This document shows positions 6,579 through 16,509 of a stretch of 64,000 nt of DNA, in pieces. The DNA is from an uncultured delta proteobacterium (GTDB lineage: Bacteria; Desulfobacterota; BSN033; UBA1163). The notes beneath the pieces were generated by a model that was given only the letters and a program-made list of their open reading frames with translations, was not told where the DNA came from and searched no databases. A program made the translations under genes and the position numbers. Each line of letters starts with the position of its first letter. Position 1 is the stretch's first letter. Where the stretch lies: contig CAWHBU010000006.1 in the NCBI GenBank assembly GCA_963827685.1, forward strand, positions 480,001 to 544,000. Direction: 5' to 3'.

Positions 6579-8371
6579 CTTTGTATTCCAAGTCTGTTAT
6601 TTTTGAGAAAATGAAGCTATTTTTAATGAAAGCCTTCGTTATTTCATTGTCTCTATTCTTTCTGGAGGCTTGTGCAGGAAGACCTGTATTTCAAGAACTA
6701 GAAAAAGGCCCACCTTCCGTTCAGCCCAATCCGACGAAACTCCAAAAAACTCAAAAGAAGACCCCTCCTTCAAACCCCCTTGCTTATTACTACTTTCTCC
6801 TCTCTCAGCTTAAATTACGGGAGGGAAAAGTGGATGAGGCGATTGAGGATCTTAAAGAAGCGATCGCCCGAGATGCCAAAGAACCTTCCCTGCATGTTGA
6901 ATTGGCTACCCTCTACATCCATAAAGGCCTATTAAACGAGGCGATCGAAGAGTGTAAAACCGCTCTCCTTGATGACCCCGATGATCTCTCTGCCCATTTG
7001 CTCCTGGGTGGATTATATTCCATCCTTAAGAAGTATCCCTTAGCCATCGCCTCTTACAAGAAAGTATTGGAGATCGACCCACAACACCGGGAAAGTTACC
7101 TTTTCCTTAGTTCCCTCTACGAAGACACCCAGAATTATGACCAAGCGATCCAAGTCCTTAAACAATTTCTCAAGATCGAACCGAACTCCGTGATGGGCCT
7201 CTATGCTTTGGGGAGGATTTATATCAGGACAAAATCTTATGAATCGGCCAAGCAATATTTTCTAAAGGCGTTAGCCATCGAGCCCAATCTGGTCTCTGTC
7301 CTGACGGATTTGGGGATGACTTATGAGATCCAGAATGAACCTGAAAAAGCAGCGGAGATCTACCAAAAAATCCTTAACCTCGATCCGGACAATAAAAAGG
7401 TGAGAAGCCGACTGGGGCAGATCTTCATCAAAAAGAAGAAGTTCGACGAGGCGTTGAATCAATTTCGGGAGATGCAAAAATCCGATTCAGAAGATCTCAA
7501 TATCCGAACGAAGATGGGCTTGATCTATTTGGAACAGGGCAAATTGGACCAGGCGATTTTGGAATTCAATTTCATCCTCGCGGCCAATCCCAAAGATGAT
7601 CGGGTCCGATATTATTTAGGGGCCGCCTATGTCGAAAAAGATGCCTTCGACCAAGCCATCTCAGAATTCAAGAAGATCCCTCCTGAATCAGCTCTCTTTG
7701 CTGATTCGAGAAGAAACATTGTCCTGATTCTGAAGAAACAGAACAAGATGGAGGAAGCGATCCGAATCTTAGAGGAATCGATTCAGGCTAAACCGAATGA
7801 GGGAGATCTTTACCTATTCCTCGCTGCTGTTTTTGAAAATGAGAACCAATTGGAAAAGGCGTTGGCCACCCTGAAGAGGGGACTCGAGAAAAATCAGAAT
7901 GATGAAGAAATTCATTTCCAAATCGGTGCACTCTGCGATAAGATGGGAAATTTCGACAAAATGGTCGCTGAAATGAAGGAGGTTCTCCGGCTCAACCCCA
8001 ACCATGCCGATGCCCTCAACTACTTGGGCTATTCCTATTCCGAGAAGGGCATCCAATTGGAAGAGGCCCTCAAACTCATCCAGAAGGCCATGGAATTGAA
8101 ACCCAATATGAGCTACATCACCGATAGTCTGGGTTGGGTCTATTATAAACTTGGGAACTACGGGAAAGCGGTGACCGAGCTTGAAAAAGCAAACCAACTG
8201 ACTCCAGATGATTCCACGATTACCGAACACGTGGCAGATGTTTATGTTAAACTGGACCGAATCGAAAAAGCCATCGAGTTTTACGAAAGGGCGTTGAAAT
8301 TGGATCCAAAACCAGATCAAAAGGAAAGGCTACAAAAGAAGATTAAGGAACTCAAAGAAAAAAAGAAGTAG
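6575..8371 (+). CDS. Multi-TPR lipoprotein
   Basis: Lipobox LEAC, many TPR repeats, ALNYLGYS and DSLGWVYY motifs. The true start may be ATG 6611. Confidence 0.9.
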   Translation: MTLYSKSVIFEKMKLFLMKAFVISLSLFFLEACAGRPVFQELEKGPPSVQPNPTKLQKTQKKTPPSNPLAYYYFLLSQLKLREGKVDEAIEDLKEAIARDAKEPSLHVELATLYIHKGLLNEAIEECKTALLDDPDDLSAHLLLGGLYSILKKYPLAIASYKKVLEIDPQHRESYLFLSSLYEDTQNYDQAIQVLKQFLKIEPNSVMGLYALGRIYIRTKSYESAKQYFLKALAIEPNLVSVLTDLGMTYEIQNEPEKAAEIYQKILNLDPDNKKVRSRLGQIFIKKKKFDEALNQFREMQKSDSEDLNIRTKMGLIYLEQGKLDQAILEFNFILAANPKDDRVRYYLGAAYVEKDAFDQAISEFKKIPPESALFADSRRNIVLILKKQNKMEEAIRILEESIQAKPNEGDLYLFLAAVFENENQLEKALATLKRGLEKNQNDEEIHFQIGALCDKMGNFDKMVAEMKEVLRLNPNHADALNYLGYSYSEKGIQLEEALKLIQKAMELKPNMSYITDSLGWVYYKLGNYGKAVTELEKANQLTPDDSTITEHVADVYVKLDRIEKAIEFYERALKLDPKPDQKERLQKKIKELKEKKK

Positions 8372-8383
8372 AGTCAACTCCGG

Positions 8384-8515
8384 AAATTAAATTCCAATCA
8401 CCAATTACAAAATTCCAAACGATATAAATCATAAATAATAATTCAAATAACCTCTCCAAGTTTTGGTTATTGGAAATTGGGATTTGTTTGGTTATTGGAT
8501 TTTGGAATTTGGATA
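8384..8515. repeat. Inverted 7-mer repeat arms, family B: (AAATTCC/AAATCCC)n...(TTTGGAA/TTGGGAT)n
   Basis: Same pattern at about 16648-16845, 34224-34470, 52047-52158, 54855-55000 and 58999-59120. A related single arm lies at 565-613. Confidence 0.8.
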
Positions 8516-8526
8516 TTACGGTTTTA

Positions 8527-8766
8527 TCAACCTCCTGCGACAGGAGGGAAGATACTCAGGACATCGCCATCCTTTAATATCTGTTCCTTCTTTCCATGGA
8601 CGCCATTGATCAAAATGATCTTAGGTATCTCTTCGGGTATTTTGAGCCGGGACAAAATATCCTGGGCTCGGGTAGAACCATCGACCTCCATCTTACAGGA
8701 AAACCGACTGCTTCCCTTCGGGAGATAATCTCGAAGTGTTGCAAATAATTTTACCTCAATCTCCAT
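8527..8766 (-). CDS. MoaD/ThiS-family sulfur-carrier protein
   Basis: 79 aa, VKLFATLR N-terminus, C-terminal FPPVAGG. Confidence 0.9.
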   Translation of the reverse strand: MEIEVKLFATLRDYLPKGSSRFSCKMEVDGSTRAQDILSRLKIPEEIPKIILINGVHGKKEQILKDGDVLSIFPPVAGG

Positions 8767-8900
8767 GGGTTTTAGTCTTTCAATTTCTTACTTTGACCTA
8801 TTCGACCTTTTTGGGCCAACTCCATAGACCAAAAAGACGTTTTATTATTATGTAACCGAAATTTTCCCCTCGCCGCAAGAGGGATTTGAGGAAAGAAGGA

Positions 8901-9941
8901 TCAGAGAATTCGAATTCTTCCGCGAGGCTCTTCCACCACTTCCCCTACGATGTTGGAATGAATGAGCCCTTCTTTCTTTAGGGTCACCACCAGTTTGTCT
9001 GCCTTGTTGGAGGGCAAAGAAATTAAGAGCCCGCCAGAGGTTTGGGGATCATAAAAAATATTGACCAATAGATCGGGTACGTCGGGTTGAACTTCCACAC
9101 GGCAGGAGAAAAAATCTCGATTTGAATAAGCCCCCCCAGGGATTAATCCCAATTTCGCATATTCTACGGCTTCAGGGAAGATTGGAACAGCTTTTGATTG
9201 AATGACCATTCCCACCTGGCTTGCGACCGCCATTTCTAATGCATGGCCGATGAAACTGAAGCCTGTGATATCCGTACAGGCATGGGCCCCAAATTTTATC
9301 ATCCATTCCGACGTTGTTCGATTAAGGGTCACCATGCTCTCCACGATCTTCCGGACAGCCTCCTCCGAAGCCATTTCACCCTTAAGGGCTGTGGCAATAA
9401 TCCCTGTGCCAAGAGGTTTCGTCAAAACCAACTTGTCCCCTACCTTCGCTTTCGCATTGGTCAGGATTTTTTTGGGATGCACCACCCCTGTTACAGCCAG
9501 GCCATATTTAATCTCCGGGTCCTCGATCGAATGCCCTCCCACCAGAGCCACACCAGCCTCCTCCATCTTCGAAAGCCCTCCGAGAAGGATTTCTTTCAAA
9601 ATAGAAGAAGAGAGGTCTTTGATGGGAAAGGCCACTAAATTCATGCCTGTGAGGGGAGTCCCTCCCATGGCATAGACGTCACTCAGAGCATTGGCCACAG
9701 CGATCTGGCCAAAAGTAAAAGGATCGTCCACGATCGGGGTGAAGAAGTCTACCGTCTGAACCAGGGCGACCTCGTCACTTAATTGATAGACCCCTGCATC
9801 ATCCGATGTCTCCAGTCCAACCAGAACCTTCGGATTTTTTGGAAGCGGCAATCCTTTAAGAATTTGATCCAGATCCTCTGGACCCACTTTAGAGGCTCAA
9901 CCCGCTTTTTTGACTTTCGAAGTCAGACGCACTTTCTCCAT
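8901..9941 (-). CDS. selD: Selenide,water dikinase (selenophosphate synthetase), selenocysteine-containing
   Basis: ATG 9941 gives MEKVRLTSKVKKAG-TGA(9897-9899)-ASKVGPEDL, in frame with the tracked ORF. This is the G-[C/U]-x-x-K active-site motif. DDAGVY, TVDFFTP, ANALSDVYAMGG and DPQTSGGLL follow. Confidence 0.96.
9866..9884 (-). promoter_or_regulatory. Bacterial SECIS hairpin of selD
   Basis: GGUCCAGA-GGA-UCUGGAUC: 8-bp stem with one GU pair and a G-led loop, starting 12 nt after the UGA. Confidence 0.8.
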
Positions 9942-9962
9942 TTCTCTCTCCGTCCTTTGAAA

Positions 9963-10220
9963 TTAGGTCAGAATTTCCTTCTTTTTCTCAAACCTTCCCC
10001 TTGAATCCTTTGTATAACATTCGGTCATCGATATCTTATTCTCCCTGAGGATAAGCAACGCTTTTTCTTCTGATTCTCCTGAGAGTTCGACCGCTACTCC
10101 GCAATCGGAACTAATATCCCTCGGCACTGGGATGAGGTCAACTTCTATTCCTTTTTCCTTAAGAAGTTTTTCAGTCCTCATCACCTGATGGACGGACGAA
10201 AAGAGGAGTACGCATTTCAT
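9963..10220 (-). CDS. DUF3343 protein (putative Se/S carrier)
   Basis: F.SVH....EK.LK..G....LIPVPR.ISSDCG motif. Overlaps the yedF stop (ATGA). Confidence 0.85.
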   Translation of the reverse strand: MKCVLLFSSVHQVMRTEKLLKEKGIEVDLIPVPRDISSDCGVAVELSGESEEKALLILRENKISMTECYTKDSRGRFEKKKEILT

Positions 10221-10813
10221 GGACGGATCAGATGATCTGCTTCCAAAAGAGACTGAGCAATATCATACATATTGGAAACAGTTCCTACTCTCAATTTCTC
10301 CTTTAATCCATAGAAATCGAGGCATGTTCCGCAGGCCAGGATCTCTACCCCCTCTTCGGATAATTTCTTGAGAGTCTCCAAGACCTCAGAACCCTCCGAA
10401 GCCAATCGAACTCCTGAATTAATCAAAATCAATCGAGAGGGTTTTTTCTCTAGATCCATTAGGGTCTTCAAAAAAGACCTCATCAGGATCGCTCCCAATG
10501 ACTCATCCCCAACACCCAGGAGATGGGAATTAATATAAACGACAACCTTTTTGATTTTCTCGTTAGGCTGGGTCACTTTCTCTCTATCCTCACTACTGGT
10601 CTTTCGAATGCGAAGATAAAAATCCTGCCCTTCCTGCTTAATTTCCACCGGACATCCTTGACTCTGAACGAACCGTTCCACATTATTACAGGAGGAAGCA
10701 TTGTCCACAATGACGATCATCTCTCCTTCCTTCAGCTGATCTAATGCCTGTTTTGTTGTCACGACAGGTTGGGGACAGGCAAGACCTCGACAGTCAATCA
10801 CCGGCATTTCCAT
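10217..10813 (-). CDS. yedF: Selenium-metabolism sulfurtransferase-like protein YedF (TusA plus DsrE domains)
   Basis: IDCRGLACPQPVV, then LG..LMRSFL, NSGVRL, ACGTCLDFY and GTVSNMY. Confidence 0.88.
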   Translation of the reverse strand: MEMPVIDCRGLACPQPVVTTKQALDQLKEGEMIVIVDNASSCNNVERFVQSQGCPVEIKQEGQDFYLRIRKTSSEDREKVTQPNEKIKKVVVYINSHLLGVGDESLGAILMRSFLKTLMDLEKKPSRLILINSGVRLASEGSEVLETLKKLSEEGVEILACGTCLDFYGLKEKLRVGTVSNMYDIAQSLLEADHLIRP

Positions 10814-10960
10814 TTCCTCCGATTCATTTTAAGGGATTGAGAAAGAACTACGGATATTATTCTACCACATATTTCCTTTTCTTTTCATAGATATTCCAGG
10901 CAGCTCTCAAAACTCAAAAGACTACCCGACACTTGTTCAAGACCAAGAAAGAAGAGCGCA

Positions 10961-12115
10961 TCACCTTTCCTGTTTGGAAATCTGGGAGACGGTTCGGATC
11001 GCGGCCTCGATGTCTGCTTCGTTGTTGAAAGCACTCAAGCCAAATCGGACTGTTCCCTCTGGGAATGTCCCGATGGTGCGATGGGCTGCGGGCGCACAGT
11101 GAAGTCCTGAACGGCAGAGGACACCGAATTCCTTTTCTAAGCGGTGGGCCACATCTGAAGGAGAAAGTTGTTCAATATTGAAAGAAAGAGTGGCAATTTG
11201 ATTTTTCTGGATTTGTGGCCCATAGCGTTTCACCCGAGAAATCTTTTTCAACCCCTCGATGAGCTTTTCAGTTAGAGTGATTTCATTTTGCCGGATCTGT
11301 TCCACTCCTTTTTCCAGGACAAATCGAATCCCGGCGAGAAGCCCGGCAATGCCAACGCCATTTGGGGTTCCGCTTTCAAAGCGGTCCGGCAAGAAGTCCG
11401 GCTGTTCCTCAAATTCTGATCGACTTCCTGTCCCACCTTGTTTTAACGGAATCATTTCCTTTTCATCTATCCGTTCACCAATAACAAGCCCCCCAGTCCC
11501 CTGGGGCCCATAAAGGCTCTTATGTCCAGTAAAAGCTAAGAGATCAATCCCATCTCTTTCAACATCAATCGGATAAGCTCCGGCCGTCTGCGCAGCATCG
11601 ACCAAAAAGAGAAGATTGTGTGCCCTTGCGATCTCCCCAACTGCGATGATTGGAAGAAGTGTTCCTGTGACATTCGAGGCATGATTGAGAACTACCATTT
11701 TTGTATTCGATTGAATCCTTCTTTCCACTTCTCCTGCGTCCAGCATACCTTCTTTGGAACAGGGAATGACGCTCAATTCGATTCCCTTCTTCTCCAGATC
11801 CCTGAGAGGCCTCATCACCGAATTGTGTTCCATGCTGCTCGTAATGACATGGTCTTTAGGTTTTAATAAACCATTTAGGGCTAAATTGATGGATTCGGTA
11901 GCATTGAGTGTGAAGACGATTCTTGATGAATCTTTGACATGGAACAGAACCGAAAGAGCCTCTCTGGTCTCATAGATAATCCTTGCGGCTTCAATCGAGA
12001 GGAAGTGTCCAGATCGGCCTGGGTTGGCCCCGACCTCCTCCATAAATTTGTTCATCGCCTCTTTCACTTGAGGAGGCTTCGGCCATGAAGTGGCTGGATT
12101 ATCGAGGTAGATCAT
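10961..12115 (-). CDS. Class V aminotransferase, cysteine desulfurase / selenocysteine lyase family
   Basis: IYLDNPATSWPKP, MEHNSV, DAAQTAG, TGHKSLYGPQG (PLP Lys), RSGLHCAP. Confidence 0.92.
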   Translation of the reverse strand: MIYLDNPATSWPKPPQVKEAMNKFMEEVGANPGRSGHFLSIEAARIIYETREALSVLFHVKDSSRIVFTLNATESINLALNGLLKPKDHVITSSMEHNSVMRPLRDLEKKGIELSVIPCSKEGMLDAGEVERRIQSNTKMVVLNHASNVTGTLLPIIAVGEIARAHNLLFLVDAAQTAGAYPIDVERDGIDLLAFTGHKSLYGPQGTGGLVIGERIDEKEMIPLKQGGTGSRSEFEEQPDFLPDRFESGTPNGVGIAGLLAGIRFVLEKGVEQIRQNEITLTEKLIEGLKKISRVKRYGPQIQKNQIATLSFNIEQLSPSDVAHRLEKEFGVLCRSGLHCAPAAHRTIGTFPEGTVRFGLSAFNNEADIEAAIRTVSQISKQER

Positions 12116-12119
12116 TTCT

Positions 12120-12335
12120 TCAATCCTTTTTTAAAACAAGACGGTAACCTTCTTGAACCCTCTCAATTTCCACACTCCACCCTGATTGTTGAGCTAAGCG
12201 AGAAACATTCTCTTTGGAAGTGTCCGTATCTACGAGGATGATAATTTCTCCCTTGTTGATCTTTTTTGTCTCACTCAGAGCCAGCATCACAGGTTGAGGG
12301 CACGAAAGCCCACGGGCATCAACGATCTTACTCAT
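12120..12335 (-). CDS. TusA/SirA-family sulfur carrier
   Basis: VDARGLSCPQPV motif, about 71 aa. Start is 12335 or 12341. Confidence 0.88.
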   Translation of the reverse strand: MSKIVDARGLSCPQPVMLALSETKKINKGEIIILVDTDTSKENVSRLAQQSGWSVEIERVQEGYRLVLKKD

Positions 12336-12350
12336 CTTCATCCCTCCTTT

Positions 12351-13445
12351 TTAAGCGACTTCTTTTCGCATTGTGAAGCCGATAAACAGACATGTGAGAA
12401 GTCCAATGATCACAGCGGCGACGCCATAGGATCCAACTCCGTCTGGAGAACTGGCCAGGCCAAAGTTATGTGCAAAACCGGCTCCGACGATCATCCCCAG
12501 GACAAAAACCGCTGCATCCCCATCGCCCTCCCCGGCAAGGAAGAGCTGTCTTCCCGGACAACCCCCGGCCAGGGCAAAGGCTAACCCTGCCAAGACCATG
12601 CCGCCGAAGTTCCAAAGGCTCATTGTGTGAGCCACGGGTTGCTTGACAAAACCGGGATGAAACTGTCCCAGAATCAAGTTCACAATAAAAGCAACAACCA
12701 CGAGAGCCATCGCTCCTGAGAGGAGATGGTTCTGTCTAAAAAGGACGAAATCCCGGATGGCCCCCATGGTGCAGAACCGACTTCTCTGCGCCAGAAATCC
12801 GATGCAGAGGCCAATCACCAGCGACACAAAAAGCGGTGCGTGCATGGACCCGGGGCCTTTCAGGCTGTAGAACAAGACTCCGCTTTTATCCTGGGCCTCA
12901 ACCTGGGGAAAGATGAACATCAGAACAAGAAACCCAAGCATGACTAAAGGCAATAACCATCCAACCGAGGTATGAGTGGTTTGAGAACGCCCCAGGTTGT
13001 AACCGCCTTTCAAAAAGAGTGTGCCAACCCATATTCCTCCGATGAGTCCGAGCAACCCGAAAATGGCATTCCCATCACCACCGGCCAAACGGAGCATAGC
13101 TCGCCAGGGGCACCCCAAAAACACCAGGGCTCCGATCATAGCAAAAGCCCCAAGGACAAATCGAACAATGGGAGCAGAGCCAGCCCGTGACCGGAATTCC
13201 TTGAACACATAGGCGGCAATCAGTGAGCCAAGGACAAAGCCGATGATTTCGGGCCGAATATATTGAACAACAGCGGCCCGATGAAGCCCCAGGGCGCCCG
13301 CAATGTCCCTCTCGAAACAGGCCACGCAGATGCCCATGTTCGCCGGGTTTCCCCACTTCTGCAAAAGCGGGGCAAAGACCCCGATAAAAGCCCCTACTGA
13401 AATGATTCCCCAACGAGTCGCAAAAATGTTCTTAATGGTGGTCAT
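12351..13445 (-). CDS. yedE: YedE-family putative selenium transporter
   Basis: GNPANMGICVACFERDIAG, FLGCPWR, RSRFCTMG and GGCPGRQ motifs in a polytopic membrane protein. ATG 13445 follows GAAAGGAGGG. Confidence 0.9.
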   Translation of the reverse strand: MTTIKNIFATRWGIISVGAFIGVFAPLLQKWGNPANMGICVACFERDIAGALGLHRAAVVQYIRPEIIGFVLGSLIAAYVFKEFRSRAGSAPIVRFVLGAFAMIGALVFLGCPWRAMLRLAGGDGNAIFGLLGLIGGIWVGTLFLKGGYNLGRSQTTHTSVGWLLPLVMLGFLVLMFIFPQVEAQDKSGVLFYSLKGPGSMHAPLFVSLVIGLCIGFLAQRSRFCTMGAIRDFVLFRQNHLLSGAMALVVVAFIVNLILGQFHPGFVKQPVAHTMSLWNFGGMVLAGLAFALAGGCPGRQLFLAGEGDGDAAVFVLGMIVGAGFAHNFGLASSPDGVGSYGVAAVIIGLLTCLFIGFTMRKEVA

Positions 13446-13450
13446 AGTTA

Positions 13451-13690
13451 CCCTCCTTTCCAAAAAATTGGTTTTGGATCATAGCCAACTCTTAATAGAT
13501 AATGGTCAGGAGGGAGGGAAAAGGTGTGAAGAACTCAGGGCACAAGAGGATAGAAATAAGTTAGGAGCATCCCTTTTCTCTCTCTCCTTCTATTGAACCG
13601 GAGACCTAACCTAGGTCTCTTTAGGCCAGATACGGCCCCTCATCTGAGAGAAAAGGGCGTTTGGGATTTTCCCACGTTGAGGCCTCCTAC
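13451..13690 (-). promoter_or_regulatory. Structured 5' leader / candidate translational attenuator
   Basis: Segment 1 (13646-13657) pairs 12/12 with segment 2 (13571-13582). Extended segment 2 (13572-13588) pairs 15/17 with segment 3 (13508-13524). Segment 3 contains CCCUCCU, complementary to the yedE SD AGGAGGG (13451-13457). Confidence 0.65.
13535..13675 (-). CDS. Putative selenocysteine-containing leader peptide (uORF) of the yedE-selD operon
   Basis: AGGAGG, 7 nt, GTG(13675): MGKSQTPFSLR-TGA(13640-13642)-GAVSGLKRPRLGLRFNRRRERKGMLLTYFYPLVP-TGA(13535-13537). A perfect 8-bp hairpin starts 20 nt after the first TGA. Confidence 0.55.
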
Positions 13691-13715
13691 CGCTTCTTGA
13701 GAAAATTATTAAAAA

Positions 13716-13776
13716 CAGTTAACTGGAAAATTGAGATATGTCAAATCGGAATTTTCGATAATGAGAATGATAATTA
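13716..13776 (-). promoter_or_regulatory. Candidate sigma70 promoter of the Se operon with adjacent operator-like motifs
   Basis: TTGACA on the minus strand at 13739-13744, with a weak -10 (TTAACT/TAACTG) 16-17 nt downstream. Directly upstream are ATCG-N7-CGAT (13745-13759) and GATAATGAGAATGATAATT (13757-13775). Confidence 0.45.
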
Positions 13777-13957
13777 TTGGAAATTCCAATTAAAAACTTC
13801 ACAACCCTTCTTCACCTTTCTATTTTCTTTTTGGTTGCTTTGCCAGGACAAAATTGATATAAATTTGAATACCGGGATAATGGAATGTTGGAATGCTGGA
13901 CACCGTTTATTCCATTCTTCCACCATTCCAATAATAATCTTTTGAGGGAGGTGGGGT

Positions 13958-14395
13958 ATGTACAAAAAAATCTTAGTCCCGTTGGATGGATCAGAATTGG
14001 CAAAAATGGCCTTGGACGAGGCTGAAAAAATGGCTAAGGCCTTTGATGCTGAAATCATTCTTTTCCAAGTGGTCCCCTTTATGCCCATATATGGTTCACC
14101 AGAGCTGGTTACCCCTCTGATCGTCGACGAAAAACAGAAGGAAGCCGCCGAGAAATATCTTGCGAACCTCTGCGAGGAATTGAGAAAGAGAGGTCTTGGG
14201 GCAGCGGCGATGGTGAGGACCGGGCAGCAGGTGGCCGTCGAGATCATTGACTTTGCCAAAGAGGCCGGGGCGGATCTAATCATCATGTGTACTCATGGCC
14301 GGTCCGGAATTTCGAGGTGGGTGATGGGGAGTGTCGCCCTTAAAGTCGTAACCCGGGCTGAAACGCCCATCCTTCTCATCCGGTCAAAAAGATAA
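13958..14395 (+). CDS. Universal stress protein (UspA family)
   Basis: YKKILVPLDGS, ADLIIMCTHGRSG, MGSVA..V. Confidence 0.93.
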   Translation: MYKKILVPLDGSELAKMALDEAEKMAKAFDAEIILFQVVPFMPIYGSPELVTPLIVDEKQKEAAEKYLANLCEELRKRGLGAAAMVRTGQQVAVEIIDFAKEAGADLIIMCTHGRSGISRWVMGSVALKVVTRAETPILLIRSKR

Positions 14396-14418
14396 AGGCT
14401 TCGATATCGGGGTAAAAA

Positions 14419-15474
14419 ATGAAACGAGAACATATCTTTCTCATCTTCATCCTTTTCCTCACCTTCTTTTCCATCTATCTGCTCTACCAAATCCTTTCCC
14501 CTTTTCTTTCTTCCATCGTATGGGCCGTCCTCCTGGCCATCGTTTTTTATCCCCTCTTCCAGAAACTTCAACGCTTATTAAAAAAAAGGGAGGTCCTCTC
14601 CGCCCTCCTCATGACCTTGTTGGTGCTTATCGTCATCGTATTGCCCTTCACTCTTCTGATGGCCTCTTTGGCCAGCGATGCAATCGACATCTATCATCAA
14701 TTGGAGGAAATGATCAAAACCGGCCAACTTCAGGCTTATTTTGATAGAATCAAAGAGATCCCCATTCTCAAATGGATCTTGGCGGGGTTAGGTCAACATA
14801 TCGATCTCTCACAGACCAATCCTCTGCCTCTATTACTAAACAACCTCAACCGGATCAGTACTTTCATCTTCACTCAGACCACCATCCTTTTAAAAGGATT
14901 CTCCACATTTATTGCTGGATTCTTCTTCACCCTCCTCTCCCTCTACTATCTTTTCAAAGATGGAAGTCACCTTTTCGGGAGATTGAAAGAGGTCATTCCC
15001 CTCCCCTCCAGGGAGAGGGACCTTCTCATTCAACGGTTCAAGGACATGATCTATGCCACCATCTACGGAGGGATTCTGATCGCCCTGATTCAGGGGGTCT
15101 TAGGTGGGTTATCTTTTTGGATCCTTGGACTCCCTTCGCCTATCTTCTGGGGAACAGCGATGGGTCTGCTTTCCTTTATCCCCATTGGTGGAACAGCTTT
15201 CATCTGGGTTCCAGCGGCTATCATCTTATTGATCGGAGGGGCTGTTGCAAAAGGACTCATCCTGCTCGGCCTGGGAGTATTGGTGATCAGTATGGTGGAT
15301 AATCTCCTCAGGCCATTTTTTATCAGCACCCGAACCAATATCCATCCTTTGCTCCTCTTCTTTGCTGTGTTAGGAGGGGTCCAGGCTTTTGGATTAATCG
15401 GTCTGGTCGCGGGCCCCTTGATTGCCACGCTCTTTCTTACCCTGACCGAAATTTATATTCAAGGGATCCAATGA
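14419..15474 (+). CDS. AI-2E (UPF0118) family transporter
   Basis: Polytopic membrane protein with LSFIP..GT...WVP, DNLLRP and GG...FG..GLV.GP motifs. Confidence 0.9.
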   Translation: MKREHIFLIFILFLTFFSIYLLYQILSPFLSSIVWAVLLAIVFYPLFQKLQRLLKKREVLSALLMTLLVLIVIVLPFTLLMASLASDAIDIYHQLEEMIKTGQLQAYFDRIKEIPILKWILAGLGQHIDLSQTNPLPLLLNNLNRISTFIFTQTTILLKGFSTFIAGFFFTLLSLYYLFKDGSHLFGRLKEVIPLPSRERDLLIQRFKDMIYATIYGGILIALIQGVLGGLSFWILGLPSPIFWGTAMGLLSFIPIGGTAFIWVPAAIILLIGGAVAKGLILLGLGVLVISMVDNLLRPFFISTRTNIHPLLLFFAVLGGVQAFGLIGLVAGPLIATLFLTLTEIYIQGIQ

Positions 15475-15477
15475 TTG

Positions 15478-15537
15478 TAGAATGCAGAATGTGGATTGCG
15501 GATTTAGATTCGCATTCCGAAATCCGCTTTCCGCAAT
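15478..15537. repeat. Inverted 7-mer repeat arms, family C: (AATGCGG)n...(AATCCGC)n
   Basis: Same pattern at about 56297-56362. Related arms at 47560-47628 and 39565-39775. Confidence 0.75.
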
Positions 15538-16509
15538 CTAAAGGTTGGGGGCTTCTAAGATCTCGTATTTGAAATCTTTGGCTTGGCTGGGAAGGTCTTT
15601 GAAAATCACCATAAAAGGAGTGGCCTTGCCCGGAGGCGTAATCATCTCTTCTTTCGTTTGAGGTTTAACCACCATCTCCCCTCTAAAAAATTCCACAGGC
15701 TGTTGCTTCAACTCTCCACGACCGATAGTCTGACCGCAGATCGCCTCCTTCTCAGCCACTTTGAGTTTGTCTTGATCAAAAATGACAATTCTTATTTTGA
15801 TATACTTTTTGGTAAGCTTGGATTGATTCTTCACCTTTCCTTCGATGACAAAGAACGAAACATCTCCTATCTTCTCGTCATATCCGCTCAGATCTCCAAC
15901 GACCAGATCTTCTCCCTCTATTCCCCAAATCTGGTTCCAAACCTCAGTGATCTTTTTAACCGAATAGTCTACATAAGGGGAGAGTCTGCCACCGGAACTT
16001 AATTCCGACCATAAATAGAAGATACCGAAGATCAGGAGCATTAAAACAATGAGAAGGGCAAGAAAGCGAAAGGGGCCTCTCCTCTCAACACGCATCATAC
16101 TCTGCGGTCTGGAGGGTTTGCCCTCCCTCCTCTCTTCCCTGACAGGTTCCTCGGCGAGTAGGTTCTCCACTTTTTGAAGAGGAACTGATTTCTCCACTTT
16201 CTCTGTTGGAGCCTTTTCAGTAAAGAGGAATGTTTCTTCTTCCTCCTCTTCCCTCTCCGGCGCTTCCTCTTCTTCCTTCACTTTCGCCCCTGGAGAAACC
16301 TCCATTTTTTTCTCACTCGGTTCCATCAAATCTTCATGATATTTGGCAAAGGATTCCAAATTCTCGATAATTTCCTCTTTGGTCTCAGGAGGAGGGACAA
16401 CGTAGAATACATGCTTGCATCGCGAACAACGGACCTTAACTCCTTCGGCCGAAATTCGAGAATCGTCTAAATTAAACTTGGTCAAACAAGAGGCACAGGT
16501 GATAATCAT
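15538..16509 (-). CDS. MJ0042-type zinc-ribbon plus DUF3426 membrane protein
   Basis: MIITCASC...VRCSRC..VF, acidic linker, single TM helix, C-terminal domain with PFMVIF. Confidence 0.85.
   Translation of the reverse strand: MIITCASCLTKFNLDDSRISAEGVKVRCSRCKHVFYVVPPPETKEEIIENLESFAKYHEDLMEPSEKKMEVSPGAKVKEEEEAPEREEEEEETFLFTEKAPTEKVEKSVPLQKVENLLAEEPVREERREGKPSRPQSMMRVERRGPFRFLALLIVLMLLIFGIFYLWSELSSGGRLSPYVDYSVKKITEVWNQIWGIEGEDLVVGDLSGYDEKIGDVSFFVIEGKVKNQSKLTKKYIKIRIVIFDQDKLKVAEKEAICGQTIGRGELKQQPVEFFRGEMVVKPQTKEEMITPPGKATPFMVIFKDLPSQAKDFKYEILEAPNL

What the first reader, a model, noticed from the sequence alone, without database searches (positions are those of the whole stretch)
13445..13690. 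Candidate selenocysteine-sensing leader-peptide attenuator controlling a selenium uptake/utilisation operon
Seen (minus strand): a perfect SD AGGAGG, 7 nt, then GTG opens MGKSQTPFSLR-UGA(13640-13642), which if read through runs 34 more codons to a UGA at 13535-13537. Twenty nt after the first UGA is a perfect hairpin GAGACCUA-GGU-UAGGUCUC (13601-13619). Its apex (A-GG-N-U) resembles the selD SECIS of the same operon (CCAGA-GGA-UCUGG). Four segments give mutually exclusive pairings. Segment 1, CCCUUUUCUCUC (uORF codons 7-10), pairs 12/12 with segment 2. Segment 2, AGGAGAGAGAGAAAAGG, pairs 15/17 with segment 3, CCUUUUCCCUCCCUCCU. Segment 3 holds CCCUCCU, the exact complement of the yedE SD AGGAGGG. 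Established: this 1:2 / 2:3 / 3:4 logic is that of amino-acid leader-peptide attenuators such as trp and his. Inference: a ribosome dwelling at the UGA when Sec-tRNA is scarce masks segment 1, so 2:3 forms, the SD is free and the operon is ON. Sec read-through strips segment 2, so 3:SD forms and the operon is OFF. I know of no described Sec-codon leader attenuator but cannot check the literature. Caveats: purine/pyrimidine tracts pair easily by chance, the hairpin is 8 nt further from the UGA than in selD, and UGA may simply terminate.
Basis: partly seen in the sequence, partly recalled or inferred. Interest (0 to 1): 0.92.

Follow-up and report, generated by a model that had tools for sequence, protein, structure and literature searches.

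The report
Selenocysteine-codon leader controlling selenium operons
Upstream of a selenium-uptake operon lies a conserved mini-gene ending in the selenocysteine/stop codon UGA, followed by a selenocysteine-insertion-like hairpin and competing RNA pairings, which looks like a natural sensor of the cell's selenium status.

Summary
It is not chance: the leader is conserved in two families of Desulfobacterota ("Syntrophaceae"-labelled MAGs). I found 69 distinct copies by pattern scans and 33 by a covariance model.

Conserved parts:
- a Shine-Dalgarno site and start codon, then a 10-12-codon uORF with a variable N-terminus;
- an invariant UGA;
- two covarying hairpins, the second with a GGN triloop always 28 nt after the UGA, resembling this genome's own SECIS elements;
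- a purine tract (seg2) that pairs either with uORF codons 7-10 (compensatory changes between families) or with a downstream CCCUCC tract (seg3; co-evolution signal).

The read-through frame stays open past seg2 in all 78 complete copies.

The leader precedes yedE/yedF/csd/selD operons. It also precedes rhodanese-DedA-like genes and, tellingly, the Cys versions of Sec-containing HdrA-MvhD. This points to "ON when Sec is scarce".

Not supported: equilibrium folding shows no consistent Shine-Dalgarno switch, there is no intrinsic terminator, and seg3:SD shows no covariation. Sec insertion itself is untested.

Six accepted literature searches found no described Sec-codon leader. My reading is a new variant of leader-peptide attenuation; the output mechanism is unresolved.

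The parts
13716..13744 (-). Probable promoter: -35 TTGACA (13744-13739), 17-nt spacer, -10 TAACTG (13721-13716). The inferred transcript start is near 13709, which gives a leader of about 264 nt.
   Evidence: TTGACA-N17-TAnnnn is kept in the orthologous upstream regions printed. The consensus scan did not list it because the -10 hexamer lacks the final T. The assignment is an inference from conservation.
13683..13688 (-). Shine-Dalgarno site AGGAGG of the leader ORF, 7 nt before the start codon.
   Evidence: An SD-like site is present in 65 of 67 pattern-set copies. It reads AGGAGGUGA-like in most copies of the second family.
13640..13675 (-). Leader ORF (uORF): GTG plus 10 codons (MGKSQTPFSLR), then UGA at 13642-13640.
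   Evidence: A start codon lies exactly 11 codons before the UGA in 65 of 67 copies. No copy of 67 has an in-frame stop in the variable codons 2-6, against 9 and 16 copies in the other two frames. In the second family 14 of 15 copies have an 11-codon uORF ending in UGA.
13646..13657 (-). seg1 (CCCUUUUCUCUC, uORF codons 7-10): the 5' strand of helix P0.
   Evidence: 12 of 12 complementary to seg2. P0 has 5 of 12 pairs with changes on both sides in the 33-copy model alignment: column pair 25:126 is CG 20 / UA 7, and 26:125 is UA 19 / CG 13.
13623..13638 (-). Hairpin P1 (GGGCC-GUAUCU-GGCCU), starting 1-2 nt after the UGA.
   Evidence: Covaries in 3 of 5 pairs and 4 of 5 pairs, with 95-97% of cells paired. 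G.U pairs fit RNA on this strand.
13601..13619 (-). Hairpin P2, SECIS-like: an 8-bp stem with triloop GGU (13611-13609). The loop lies 28 nt after the UGA.
   Evidence: Covaries in 4 of 8 pairs and 5 of 8 pairs, with 99% of cells paired. The loop offset is 28 nt in all 14 intact copies of the second family. Loop variants GGU, GGA, GGG and GGC mirror the genuine SECIS triloops of this genome: GGC, GGG, GGA and GUU, 19-27 nt after their UGAs.
13571..13588 (-). seg2, purine tract AGGAGAGAGAGAAAAGGG. It is the 3' strand of P0 and the alternative partner of seg3.
   Evidence: Partner permutation of seg2 against seg3 gives own pairs -23.3 kcal/mol against -21.5 kcal/mol for swapped partners, with 0 of 2000 permutations as low. 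Within family f1 alone the result is also 0 of 2000.
13535..13639 (-). Read-through extension of the leader ORF: 34 codons, then UGA at 13537-13535. It crosses P1, P2 and seg2 and ends 10 nt before seg3.
   Evidence: The frame is open for 27-50 codons in all 65 complete pattern-set copies, with a mode of 34 codons in 38 of 65. It is open for 26-39 codons in 14 second-family copies, one of them cut at its contig end. The UGA-to-CCUGA distance is 105, 102, 99 or 126 nt in 41 of 42 scored copies and 104 nt in one.
13508..13524 (-). seg3, pyrimidine tract CCUUUUCCCUCCCUCCU with an anti-SD core CCCUCC.
   Evidence: Pairs 15 of 17 with seg2 and 7 of 7 with the yedE SD. A CCCUCC-like core is kept in both families. 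The tract lies in a C-rich, G-poor stretch: C 31%, G 13%.
13443..13457 (-). yedE Shine-Dalgarno site AGGAGGG (13457-13451) and start codon ATG (13445-13443).
   Evidence: Orthologues start with MTTIKN. The consensus fold pairs seg3 CCCUCCU with this SD.
8901..13445 (-). The regulated operon, in order:
- yedE, 13445-12351
- yedF/TusA, 12341-12120
- class-V aminotransferase (Csd-like), 12115-10961
- TusA-DsrE fusion, 10813-10217
- Se/S-carrier protein, 10220-9963
- selD, 9941-8901, with Sec codon UGA at 9899-9897 and a SECIS hairpin at about 9884-9865
   Evidence: Pfam matches. Translation of selD with TGA read as U. Sequence and fold.

Best explanation
This is a ribosome-dependent regulatory leader. 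It ties expression of selenium-acquisition operons, and in other genomes Cys-type back-up operons, to the cell's capacity to decode UGA as selenocysteine.

The transcript starts near 13709. A strongly initiated 11-codon uORF ends in UGA. Its last codons (seg1) form one strand of helix P0 with the purine tract seg2. P0 closes a three-way junction that holds hairpins P1 and P2. P2 is a SECIS-like hairpin that I infer binds SelB.

Proposed states, all inferred:
1. No uORF translation. P0 forms, seg3 (anti-SD, C-rich) is free, and it masks the downstream SD or exposes a Rho loading site. The operon is OFF.
2. Sec-tRNA(Sec)/SelB scarce. Ribosomes stop at the UGA and keep seg1 covered. seg2 pairs with seg3 and the SD is free. 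The operon is ON.
3. Sec-tRNA(Sec)/SelB plentiful. Ribosomes insert Sec, run through P1, P2 and seg2 to a second stop just before seg3, and strip seg2 from seg3. The operon is OFF.

What is shown: conservation of all parts, covariation of P0, P1 and P2, co-evolution of seg2 with seg3, an open read-through frame, the Sec machinery in the genome, and the content of the regulon.

What is inferred: Sec insertion at this UGA, SelB binding to P2, the polarity, and the output step.
For: Anatomy. It is verified.

Conservation.
- 9 of 9 leader-bearing yedE loci keep SD, start, 11 codons and UGA although the N-terminal codons differ.
- There are 69 distinct copies from the pattern scans.
- Covariance-model hits occur in 18 of 55 genomes of family f1 and in 13 of 17 genomes of family f39 (15 copies). 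All 33 carry the UGA letters at the aligned place, and 31 of 33 have it in frame with an SD-preceded start.

Translation signal.
- 0 of 67 copies have an in-frame stop in the variable codons 2-6, against 9 and 16 copies in the other frames; 65 of 67 have an SD-like site.

Structure.
- P1 and P2 covary.
- P0 shows C-G/U-A swaps between families.
- Against own partners, seg2:seg3 pairs better than every one of 2000 permutations; for seg1:seg2, 1 of 2000 permutations was as low.
- Median duplex energies are balanced: seg1:seg2 -18.7, seg2:seg3 -19.6, seg3:SD -14.1 kcal/mol.

SECIS-likeness.
- P2 has a GGN triloop on an 8-bp stem, at an invariant 28 nt from the UGA.
- This genome's real SECIS elements have GGC, GGG, GGA or GUU triloops 19-27 nt from their UGAs.

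Read-through.
- The frame is open at least 13 codons beyond P2 in 78 of 78 copies, against 78% and 54% of copies reaching 12 codons in the other frames.
- 10 of 11 length variants keep the CCUGA stop in frame.

Sec trait. The genome has tRNA-Sec, SelB and a Sec-containing SelD.

Regulon and polarity.
- The first downstream gene is YedE in 56 copies, YedF in 3, Csd in 3, TusA-DsrE in 3 and SelD in 1.
- Other copies precede rhodanese plus a Fer4-CCG-VTT (DedA-like) protein, or HdrA plus MvhD.
- The HdrA and MvhD under the leader (L043, L095) carry Cys exactly where G000's 78%- and 53%-identical homologues carry an in-frame TGA. The L043 genome also holds Sec-type MvhD copies.
- In Methanococcus, yedE mRNA rises 5.3 log2 on selenium starvation and Cys isoforms replace Sec isoforms (PMC11097638, passages and abstract).
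Against: - Ensemble folding with ribosome-footprint constraints gives no consistent switch. Median P(unpaired SD) is 0.11 free, 0.17 with a ribosome at the UGA, 0.19 with a ribosome at stop 2, and 0.06 with seg2 covered (57 leaders).
- In the window's own leader, seg3:SD persists in every condition tested.
- The unconstrained ensemble rarely predicts P0: median 0.3 bp.
- The consensus fold of the 3' half lets seg2:seg3 (5' part) and seg3:SD (3' part) coexist.
- seg3:SD shows no partner specificity: 894 of 2000 permutations are as low.
- The open read-through frame is only moderately distinctive, because seg2 has no U. The second stop varies between 26 and 50 codons.
- P2's loop lies 1 nt beyond the range of this genome's own SECIS elements, and hairpin P1 intervenes.
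- Exceptions exist. G041 lost the UGA and seg3 while keeping SelB. L169 is frame-shifted and has a UGU loop. L035 has its start out of frame.
- The pattern-scan sets were forced to contain UGA, GGUU and GGAGAGA, so only the yedE-anchored and model-based sets test those letters.
- There are no expression data for the leader.
Confidence: 0.5

Rival explanations
1. SelB- or protein-operated RNA switch without Sec insertion. The UGA is only the uORF's stop codon. uORF translation merely opens P0. P2 is an operator bound by SelB.GTP.Sec-tRNA (as in the E. coli selAB 5' UTR) or by another protein, and that binding stabilises the three-way junction so that seg3 stays free and the operon is OFF when Sec-tRNA is plentiful.
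For: - P2 is far more conserved in sequence than its structure requires.
- The E. coli selAB precedent exists (passage in bioRxiv 10.64898/2026.03.03.709296).
- The UGA letters persist even in the two copies where the frame is broken, L169 and L035. This could mean an RNA-motif constraint rather than decoding.
- The read-through frame statistic is modest.
Against: - The stop is UGA, never UAA or UAG, in 33 of 33 model-found copies, while the codon before it varies freely.
- P2 sits at a fixed SECIS-like distance from the UGA.
- Indels keep the second stop in frame in 10 of 11 variants.
- The frame clears seg2 in 78 of 78 copies.
- P2 lies about 150 nt from the regulated SD, unlike selAB, where the gap is 3 nt.
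Confidence: 0.25
2. Positive, Rho-type coupling. Sec read-through lets ribosomes cover the C-rich, G-poor RNA after seg2 and so blocks Rho. Without Sec the naked leader is terminated. The operon is ON only when selenium is available, as shown for fdhF(Sec) in Treponema primitia.
For: - The 90 nt after seg2 are C 31%, G 13%.
- There is no intrinsic terminator.
- MITE-like insertions between seg3 and the SD are tolerated.
- The T. primitia precedent exists (PMC3892789, passages).
Against: - It does not explain the conserved, covarying P0 and the seg2:seg3 alternatives.
- The polarity clashes with the leader driving Cys-type HdrA/MvhD back-ups and uptake genes.
Confidence: 0.08
3. Arrest-peptide sensor. 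The conserved peptide end, P-[FL]-S-[LI]-x followed by UGA, stalls the ribosome at the RF2-read stop in response to a small molecule, as TnaC does. The stalled ribosome sets the RNA fold.
For: - The peptide motif xxxxxP[FL]S[LI]x is kept in both families, and MGK.QTP is shared between them.
- The stop is always UGA.
Against: - seg1 is conserved at wobble positions, and the F>L change is compensated in seg2. The constraint is therefore on RNA pairing.
- It does not explain a SECIS-like hairpin at a fixed distance or the open read-through frame.
Confidence: 0.07
4. A genuine small selenoprotein gene of about 46 aa whose product has its own function; the RNA complementarities are incidental.
For: In-frame UGA with a SECIS-like hairpin and an open frame.
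Against: - The C-terminal part is unconserved in sequence and in length (26-50 codons).
- The N-terminus is variable.
- The conserved stretches coincide with RNA helices.
Confidence: 0.03

Closest known systems
Leader-peptide transcription attenuators of amino-acid operons (trp, his, leu, thr, pheA of enterobacteria)
   Same: A short SD-led leader ORF. The position of the leader ribosome chooses between mutually exclusive pairings (1:2 versus 2:3). The sensed quantity is the supply of one charged tRNA. The regulated genes make or acquire the sensed compound.
   Different: - The sensing codon is a single UGA that needs SelB and a SECIS, so the choice is termination versus read-through, not stalling at tandem sense codons.
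- There is no 3:4 intrinsic terminator (0 found).
- The output is probably SD masking or Rho.
- The leader also fronts back-up isoenzyme operons.
SECIS-like element in the 5' UTR of E. coli selAB (SelB-mediated translational repression). Seen only as a passage in bioRxiv 10.64898/2026.03.03.709296; the original paper is recalled, not read.
   Same: A SECIS-type hairpin in the leader of a selenium-metabolism operon. It gives negative feedback by Sec-tRNA-charged SelB.
   Different: In E. coli the hairpin lies 3 nt from the regulated SD and has no upstream uORF or in-frame UGA. Here it lies 28 nt after a uORF's UGA, about 150 nt from the SD, inside a three-way junction with alternative pairings.
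Selenium-dependent transcription of fdhF(Sec) in Treponema primitia by translational coupling (PMC3892789, passages read)
   Same: Selenium status is read by the ribosome at a UGA/SECIS and passed on to downstream expression.
   Different: There the UGA lies inside the enzyme's own gene and selenium turns expression ON. Here it lies in a dedicated leader and the regulon content suggests OFF with selenium. That paper states that a rare-amino-acid attenuator had been engineered but not reported in nature.
tnaC leader of the tryptophanase operon (recalled; abstract of bioRxiv 10.1101/2021.03.31.437805 seen in a search listing)
   Same: Leader peptide ending in UGA. The fate of the ribosome at that stop decides downstream expression. 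There is a C-rich region downstream.
   Different: TnaC senses free tryptophan through the nascent peptide and blocks RF2. It has no SECIS and no alternative helices.
Selenium-responsive Sec/Cys isoenzyme switch of Methanococcus (HrsM/LysR_Se; PMC11097638 and PMC9312934, passages)
   Same: The physiological logic is the same: Cys isoforms and yedE go up when selenium is scarce.
   Different: It is archaeal and uses a protein transcription factor, not a cis-acting translated RNA leader.

Membership tests
Bacterial SECIS element | Hairpin directly 3' of an in-frame UGA in a translated frame. | tested here: met
   The UGA ends an SD-led uORF, and P2 follows it in 31 of 33 model-found copies with the frame intact.
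Bacterial SECIS element | Small apical loop with conserved G (GG or GU) on a stable stem. | tested here: met
   The triloop is GGU, with variants GGA, GGG and GGC, on an 8-bp covarying stem. The genome's own SECIS elements have GGC, GGG, GGA or GUU triloops.
Bacterial SECIS element | Loop at the distance from the UGA that the organism's SelB uses. | tested here: inconclusive
   The loop lies 28 nt after the UGA, invariant across copies. Six predicted genuine SECIS elements of G000 lie at 19-27 nt. The published 16-37 nt range is recalled, not checked.
Bacterial SECIS element | Binds SelB and directs Sec insertion. | not testable with these tools
   Needs a gel shift, 75Se labelling or mass spectrometry.
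trp-type leader-peptide transcription attenuator | Short translated leader ORF carrying codon(s) for the sensed amino acid. | tested here: met
   SD, start codon and 10-12 codons are conserved and end in the Sec codon UGA. Translation is inferred from conservation.
trp-type leader-peptide transcription attenuator | Mutually exclusive helices 1:2 and 2:3. | tested here: met
   P0 (seg1:seg2) shows compensatory changes. seg2:seg3 shows own-partner specificity, 0 of 2000 permutations. Both helices use seg2.
trp-type leader-peptide transcription attenuator | 3:4 helix is an intrinsic terminator (G+C-rich stem followed by a U run). | tested here: not met
   0 terminator-like sites in 13300-14100. 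seg3 is followed by GACCAUUAUC.
trp-type leader-peptide transcription attenuator | Ribosome position changes the predicted fold of the output element. | tested here: inconclusive
   Footprint-constrained ensembles give no consistent change in SD pairing.
E. coli selAB-type SECIS-like translational operator | SECIS-like hairpin immediately adjacent to the regulated SD. | tested here: not met
   P2 ends at 13601 and the yedE SD is at 13457-13451, about 145 nt away.
Any Rfam family | Match to a curated covariance model. | tested here: not met
   An E-value scan of 8000-16000 gave only chance miRNA/snoRNA-type hits, the best at 26.9 bits against a gathering score of 95.5.

The most novel reading that the evidence does not exclude
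A natural 'selenocysteine attenuator'. A translated leader's single UGA/SECIS measures the supply of Sec-tRNA(Sec)-SelB, and termination versus read-through flips an RNA switch. The element defines a selenium-starvation regulon in Desulfobacterota, with these members:
- yedE/yedF/csd/selD uptake and trafficking genes
- rhodanese plus DedA-like genes
- Cys-type HdrA-MvhD back-ups
- an FdhA-like gene
- a BCR/HGD-like dehydratase with its activator
- a corrinoid methyltransferase pair

It would be the natural counterpart of the engineered unnatural-amino-acid attenuators.
Probability: 0.5. Interest if true: 0.9.

Novelty: new variant of a known kind. Interest (0 to 1): 0.82.

Why it matters
How bacteria sense selenium is largely unknown. 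No dedicated selenium transporter regulation or bacterial selenium sensor RNA is established, and Rfam holds nothing for this region.

If confirmed, this element would be the first leader peptide that senses a recoded stop codon. It would link the recoding machinery (SelB, SECIS, RF2 competition) directly to gene control.

It would also give a sequence tag for finding selenium-responsive genes in uncultured anaerobes. That includes which Cys isoenzymes act as back-ups for selenoproteins in syntrophic metabolism. The element is compact, about 190 nt, and readily testable with reporters.

Tried and rejected
- Rfam scan: nothing relevant.
- Single-sequence fold: z = -0.97, uninformative.
- Promoter and terminator scan: no minus-strand promoter and no terminator called.
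- The 'order' search returned the same 55 genomes as 'family' and added nothing.
- Class search: five weak hits in family f2 (27-36 bits) lie inside a conserved coding region and were discarded as false. G041 (26.5 bits) is a degenerate leader without UGA or seg3.
- I tested whether G041's loss of the UGA goes with loss of the Sec trait. It does not: SelB is present.
- Rows dropped as chance hits: 3 of 17 genome pattern hits (L032, L033, L036) and 6 of 71 metagenome hits (L063, L068, L084, L100, L106, L109). They lack the uORF and hairpins.
- Expression: the one RNA run (X20, metatranscriptome contigs) covers only about 13294-13444 of relatives' yedE and nothing of the leader, and contigs cannot show ends. 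No conclusion.
- Equilibrium switch modelling gave no consistent result.
- The consensus fold of the 3' half gave weak, non-exclusive helices.
- Literature: of seven searches sent, six were accepted. None found a description of a Sec-codon leader peptide or of a yedE/selD leader RNA.
- Supplements were closed and not consulted. The supplementary tables of the selenoproteome surveys could list the read-through ORF as a predicted small selenoprotein.
- Complex prediction, structure tools and large protein searches were not used, because no protein question was open.
Full report
1. THE OBSERVATION

- AGGAGG at 13688-13683, 7 nt, then GTG at 13675-13673.
- The uORF MGKSQTPFSLR, ending in UGA at 13642-13640.
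- An in-frame continuation of 34 codons to UGA at 13537-13535.
- A perfect 8-bp hairpin with loop GGU at 13619-13601, starting 20 nt after the first UGA.
- seg1 (13657-13646), 12 of 12 complementary to seg2 (13588-13571).
- seg2, 15 of 17 complementary to seg3 (13524-13508).
- seg3's CCCUCCU, complementary to the yedE SD AGGAGGG (13457-13451).

Downstream lie, in order: yedE, yedF/TusA, a class-V aminotransferase, a TusA-DsrE fusion, a Se/S-carrier protein and selD (Pfam). selD has Sec at codon 15: UGA at 9899-9897, followed by UCCAGA-GGA-UCUGGA. The genome has tRNA-Sec and SelB.

Rfam has no match. The single-sequence folding energy is unremarkable, z = -0.97. No intrinsic terminator is predicted.

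2. CONSERVATION

I fetched 13 yedE loci from relatives.
- Nine carry the leader.
- Two (L006, L019) have yedE behind another gene.
- Two, with 67%-identical YedE (L009, L010), have other leaders.

In all nine leader-bearing loci a start codon sits exactly 11 codons before a UGA. This holds although codons 2-6 differ (MGKSQT, MKNTAT, MVELQK, MIEKGI, MGRYEA and others). The frame stays open for 29-50 further codons.

A pattern scan of GTDB genomes gave 14 true copies among 17 hits, all in MAGs labelled Syntrophaceae or Deltaproteobacteria. A metagenome scan gave 65 true copies among 71 hits. After removing duplicates, 69 distinct copies remain. Because the pattern forces UGA, GGUU and GGAGAGA, these sets cannot test those letters. 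They do test everything else:
- The start codon is 11 codons upstream in 65 of 67 copies. The exceptions are L035, a frame-shifted start in a MAG whose record name suggests, from recall, a long-read assembly, and L043, with 10 codons.
- Start codons are ATG in 43 copies and GTG in 22.
- An SD-like site is present in 65 of 67 copies.
- No copy of 67 has an in-frame stop in codons 2-6, against 9 and 16 copies in the other frames.

A covariance model (R1, 110 positions) provides unbiased sets.
- One copy in 18 of 55 genomes of the family.
- Nothing real in the two other families of the class.
- 3 hits in a 151-genome sample of the phylum, all in one other family, f39.
- In f39, 13 of 17 genomes carry it, 15 copies in all.

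All 33 copies have UGA at the aligned place. In 31 of 33 it closes a 10-12-codon, SD-led ORF.

There are three exceptions:
- L169: 1 nt shorter, stops at a UAG inside P2, and has a UGU loop.
- L035: start out of frame.
- G041: a degenerate 26-bit copy with no UGA and no seg3, although that genome keeps SelB.

3. RNA STRUCTURE

P1 and P2 covary.
- In the 63-copy alignment, 3 of 5 and 4 of 8 pairs change on both sides, with 97% and 99% of cells paired.
- In the 33-copy model alignment, 4 of 5 and 5 of 8 pairs do so (this alignment is fitted to the model).
- Frequent G.U pairs fit RNA of this strand and not a DNA palindrome.

Helix P0 (seg1:seg2) is nearly invariant within family f1 but changes in a compensatory way in f39. 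CCCUUUU/AAAAGGG becomes CCUCUUU/AAUGAGG. Column pair 25:126 is CG 20 / UA 7, and 26:125 is UA 19 / CG 13. Five of 12 pairs change on both sides, and 0 of 500 shuffles reach the observed scores. The leader therefore forms a three-way junction, P0-P1-P2. The uORF's last codons form the 5' strand of P0, and the UGA sits in the junction.

For the alternative helix I swapped partners between leaders.
- seg2 windows pair better with their own seg3 windows: -23.3 against -21.5 kcal/mol, 0 of 2000 permutations as low. Within f1 alone the result is also 0 of 2000.
- seg1:seg2 gives 1 of 2000 overall.
- seg3:SD gives 894 of 2000.
- Two control pairings show nothing.

These permutations ignore phylogeny.

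Median duplex energies are balanced: seg1:seg2 -18.7, seg2:seg3 -19.6, seg3:SD -14.1 kcal/mol.

4. IS THE UGA READ AS SEC?

For:
- P2 resembles the genome's own SECIS elements. Six of those, predicted after the in-frame UGAs of three MvhD genes, two FdhA genes and selD, are 6-9-bp stems with triloops GGC, GGC, GUU, GGG, GGC and GGA, lying 19-27 nt after the UGA.
- P2 is an 8-bp stem with triloop GGU. Its variants in other copies are GGA, GGG and GGC.
- P2's loop is always 28 nt after the UGA, including all 14 intact f39 copies.
- The read-through frame is open at least 13 codons past P2, and so beyond seg2, in 78 of 78 complete copies. The other frames reach 12 codons in 78% and 54% of copies.
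- In f1 the modal length is 34 codons, in 38 of 65 complete copies.
- Where the distance to the conserved CCUGA stop differs from 105 nt, it is 99, 102 or 126 nt in 10 of 11 copies. Some of these copies are close relatives.

Against:
- seg2 contains no U, so openness there is cheap.
- The second stop wanders between 26 and 50 codons.
- P1 intervenes between the UGA and P2.
- P2's loop is 1 nt beyond the local SECIS range.

Sec insertion is therefore plausible but unproven.

5. WHAT THE LEADER CONTROLS, AND POLARITY

Of 84 copies, 66 are followed first by a homologue of one of the window's operon proteins: YedE 56, YedF 3, Csd 3, TusA-DsrE 3, SelD 1. Ten have too little downstream sequence. Eight have other genes.

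Pfam on those eight and on a second copy in one genome gives:
- a secreted rhodanese with a Fer4-CCG-VTT (DedA-like) protein (L052, L098, L094; also L031);
- a DsrE-like protein plus Fer4-CCG-VTT (L092, L067);
- an FdhA-like N-terminus (L045, cut by the contig end);
- HGD-D plus a BcrAD-type ATPase (L089);
- a corrinoid protein plus a URO-D-type methyltransferase (L177);
- HdrA-like plus MvhD (L043, L095).

The last pair is informative.
- L043's HdrA is 78% identical to a G000 gene that has an in-frame stop, TNDCSI*ILAPKL, exactly where L043 and L095 read TNDCSMCIESPKF.
- Its MvhD reads CNWCCYGGAD where the G000 homologue reads CHW*AYGAGD.
- The L043 genome also has two MvhD genes with one TGA each.

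So the leader fronts the Cys back-ups of selenoproteins together with selenium uptake and trafficking genes. That set makes sense if it is induced when Sec is scarce.

This matches Methanococcus, where yedE mRNA rises 5.3 log2 on selenium starvation and Cys isoforms replace Sec isoforms (PMC11097638, passages and start of the abstract). It is an inference from gene content, not a measurement.

6. MECHANISM

- Ribosomes ending at the UGA cover seg1, which lies 4-15 nt upstream of the stop, and so free seg2 for seg3.
- Ribosomes that insert Sec run over seg2 and stop 10 nt before seg3, leaving seg3 single-stranded.
- Free seg3 (anti-SD CCCUCC, inside a tract with C 31% and G 13%) could mask the SD. 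The consensus fold pairs CCCUCCU with AGGAGGG.
- Alternatively it could load Rho.

MITE-like insertions of about 110-190 nt between seg3 and the SD in five of the loci read are compatible with either output.

Equilibrium modelling does not confirm the switch. With footprints at the UGA, at stop 2 or over seg2, the median probability that the SD is unpaired is 0.17, 0.19 and 0.06, against 0.11 when free. The window's own leader keeps seg3:SD in all conditions tested. Kinetic, co-transcriptional effects were not modelled.

7. COMPARISON WITH WHAT IS KNOWN, AND NOVELTY

The element works like a leader-peptide attenuator but fails the terminator criterion. It contains a SECIS-like element but is not the selAB-type operator, because it is not adjacent to the SD. 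It resembles the T. primitia fdhF coupling only in sensing selenium at a UGA.

Six accepted full-text searches found no description of such a leader. Supplements and subscription-only papers could not be checked.

I rate it a new variant of a known kind. Confidence that the element is real is high. Confidence that it senses Sec decoding is moderate, about 0.5. The output mechanism is unresolved.

Noticed in passing
window ~13751-13784 (minus strand), just upstream of the -35 box: A conserved palindrome, TTTTCAATAAT-N9-ATTATTGAAAA-like. In the window it reads TTTCCAATAATTATCATTCTCATTATCGAAAA. It abuts the TTGACA box in the f1 yedE promoters read. It is also present in L009, L149 and L155, whose leaders differ or are degenerate. 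It is probably a transcription-factor operator, a second layer of control. No regulator gene was identified.
   Followed up: partly
L005, L008, L011, L037, L039 (between seg3 and the yedE SD); also upstream of the L007 promoter: Insertions of about 110-190 nt with similar, highly structured sequence (…CGTAAAACGGTCA[CT]GGTAACGATGCCCGTATCG…-like). They look like a MITE/REP-type mobile repeat that repeatedly landed in this leader without removing it.
   Followed up: no
L177 (second leader copy in the genome of L043); L089; L045: The same leader also precedes three other gene sets: a corrinoid protein with a URO-D-type methyltransferase, an HGD-D/BcrAD (class-I benzoyl-CoA-reductase-like or dehydratase) pair, and an FdhA-like gene. 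These may be selenium-independent substitutes for selenoenzyme pathways. The link is untested.
   Followed up: partly
G000 contigs C3 and C4 (outside the window): C4:127410, C3:83614, C3:19940, C3:1131497, C4:8524, C3:23626-20552, C4:2518-2910: The genome encodes several selenoproteins with in-frame TGA: three MvhD/FlpD, two FdhA-like and two HdrA-like. Their SECIS triloops are mostly GGN.
   Followed up: partly
window 13774-14286 (minus strand): A 170-aa ORF with no Pfam match overlaps the Usp gene on the opposite strand. It is probably not a gene.
   Followed up: no
L155 (G041) upstream of yedE: A shortened leader variant. Its uORF has no UGA, runs 31 codons through a P2-like hairpin and stops at UAA 5 nt before the yedE SD. 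seg3 is absent. This may be a derived, selenium-blind form, or a form coupled in another way.
   Followed up: partly
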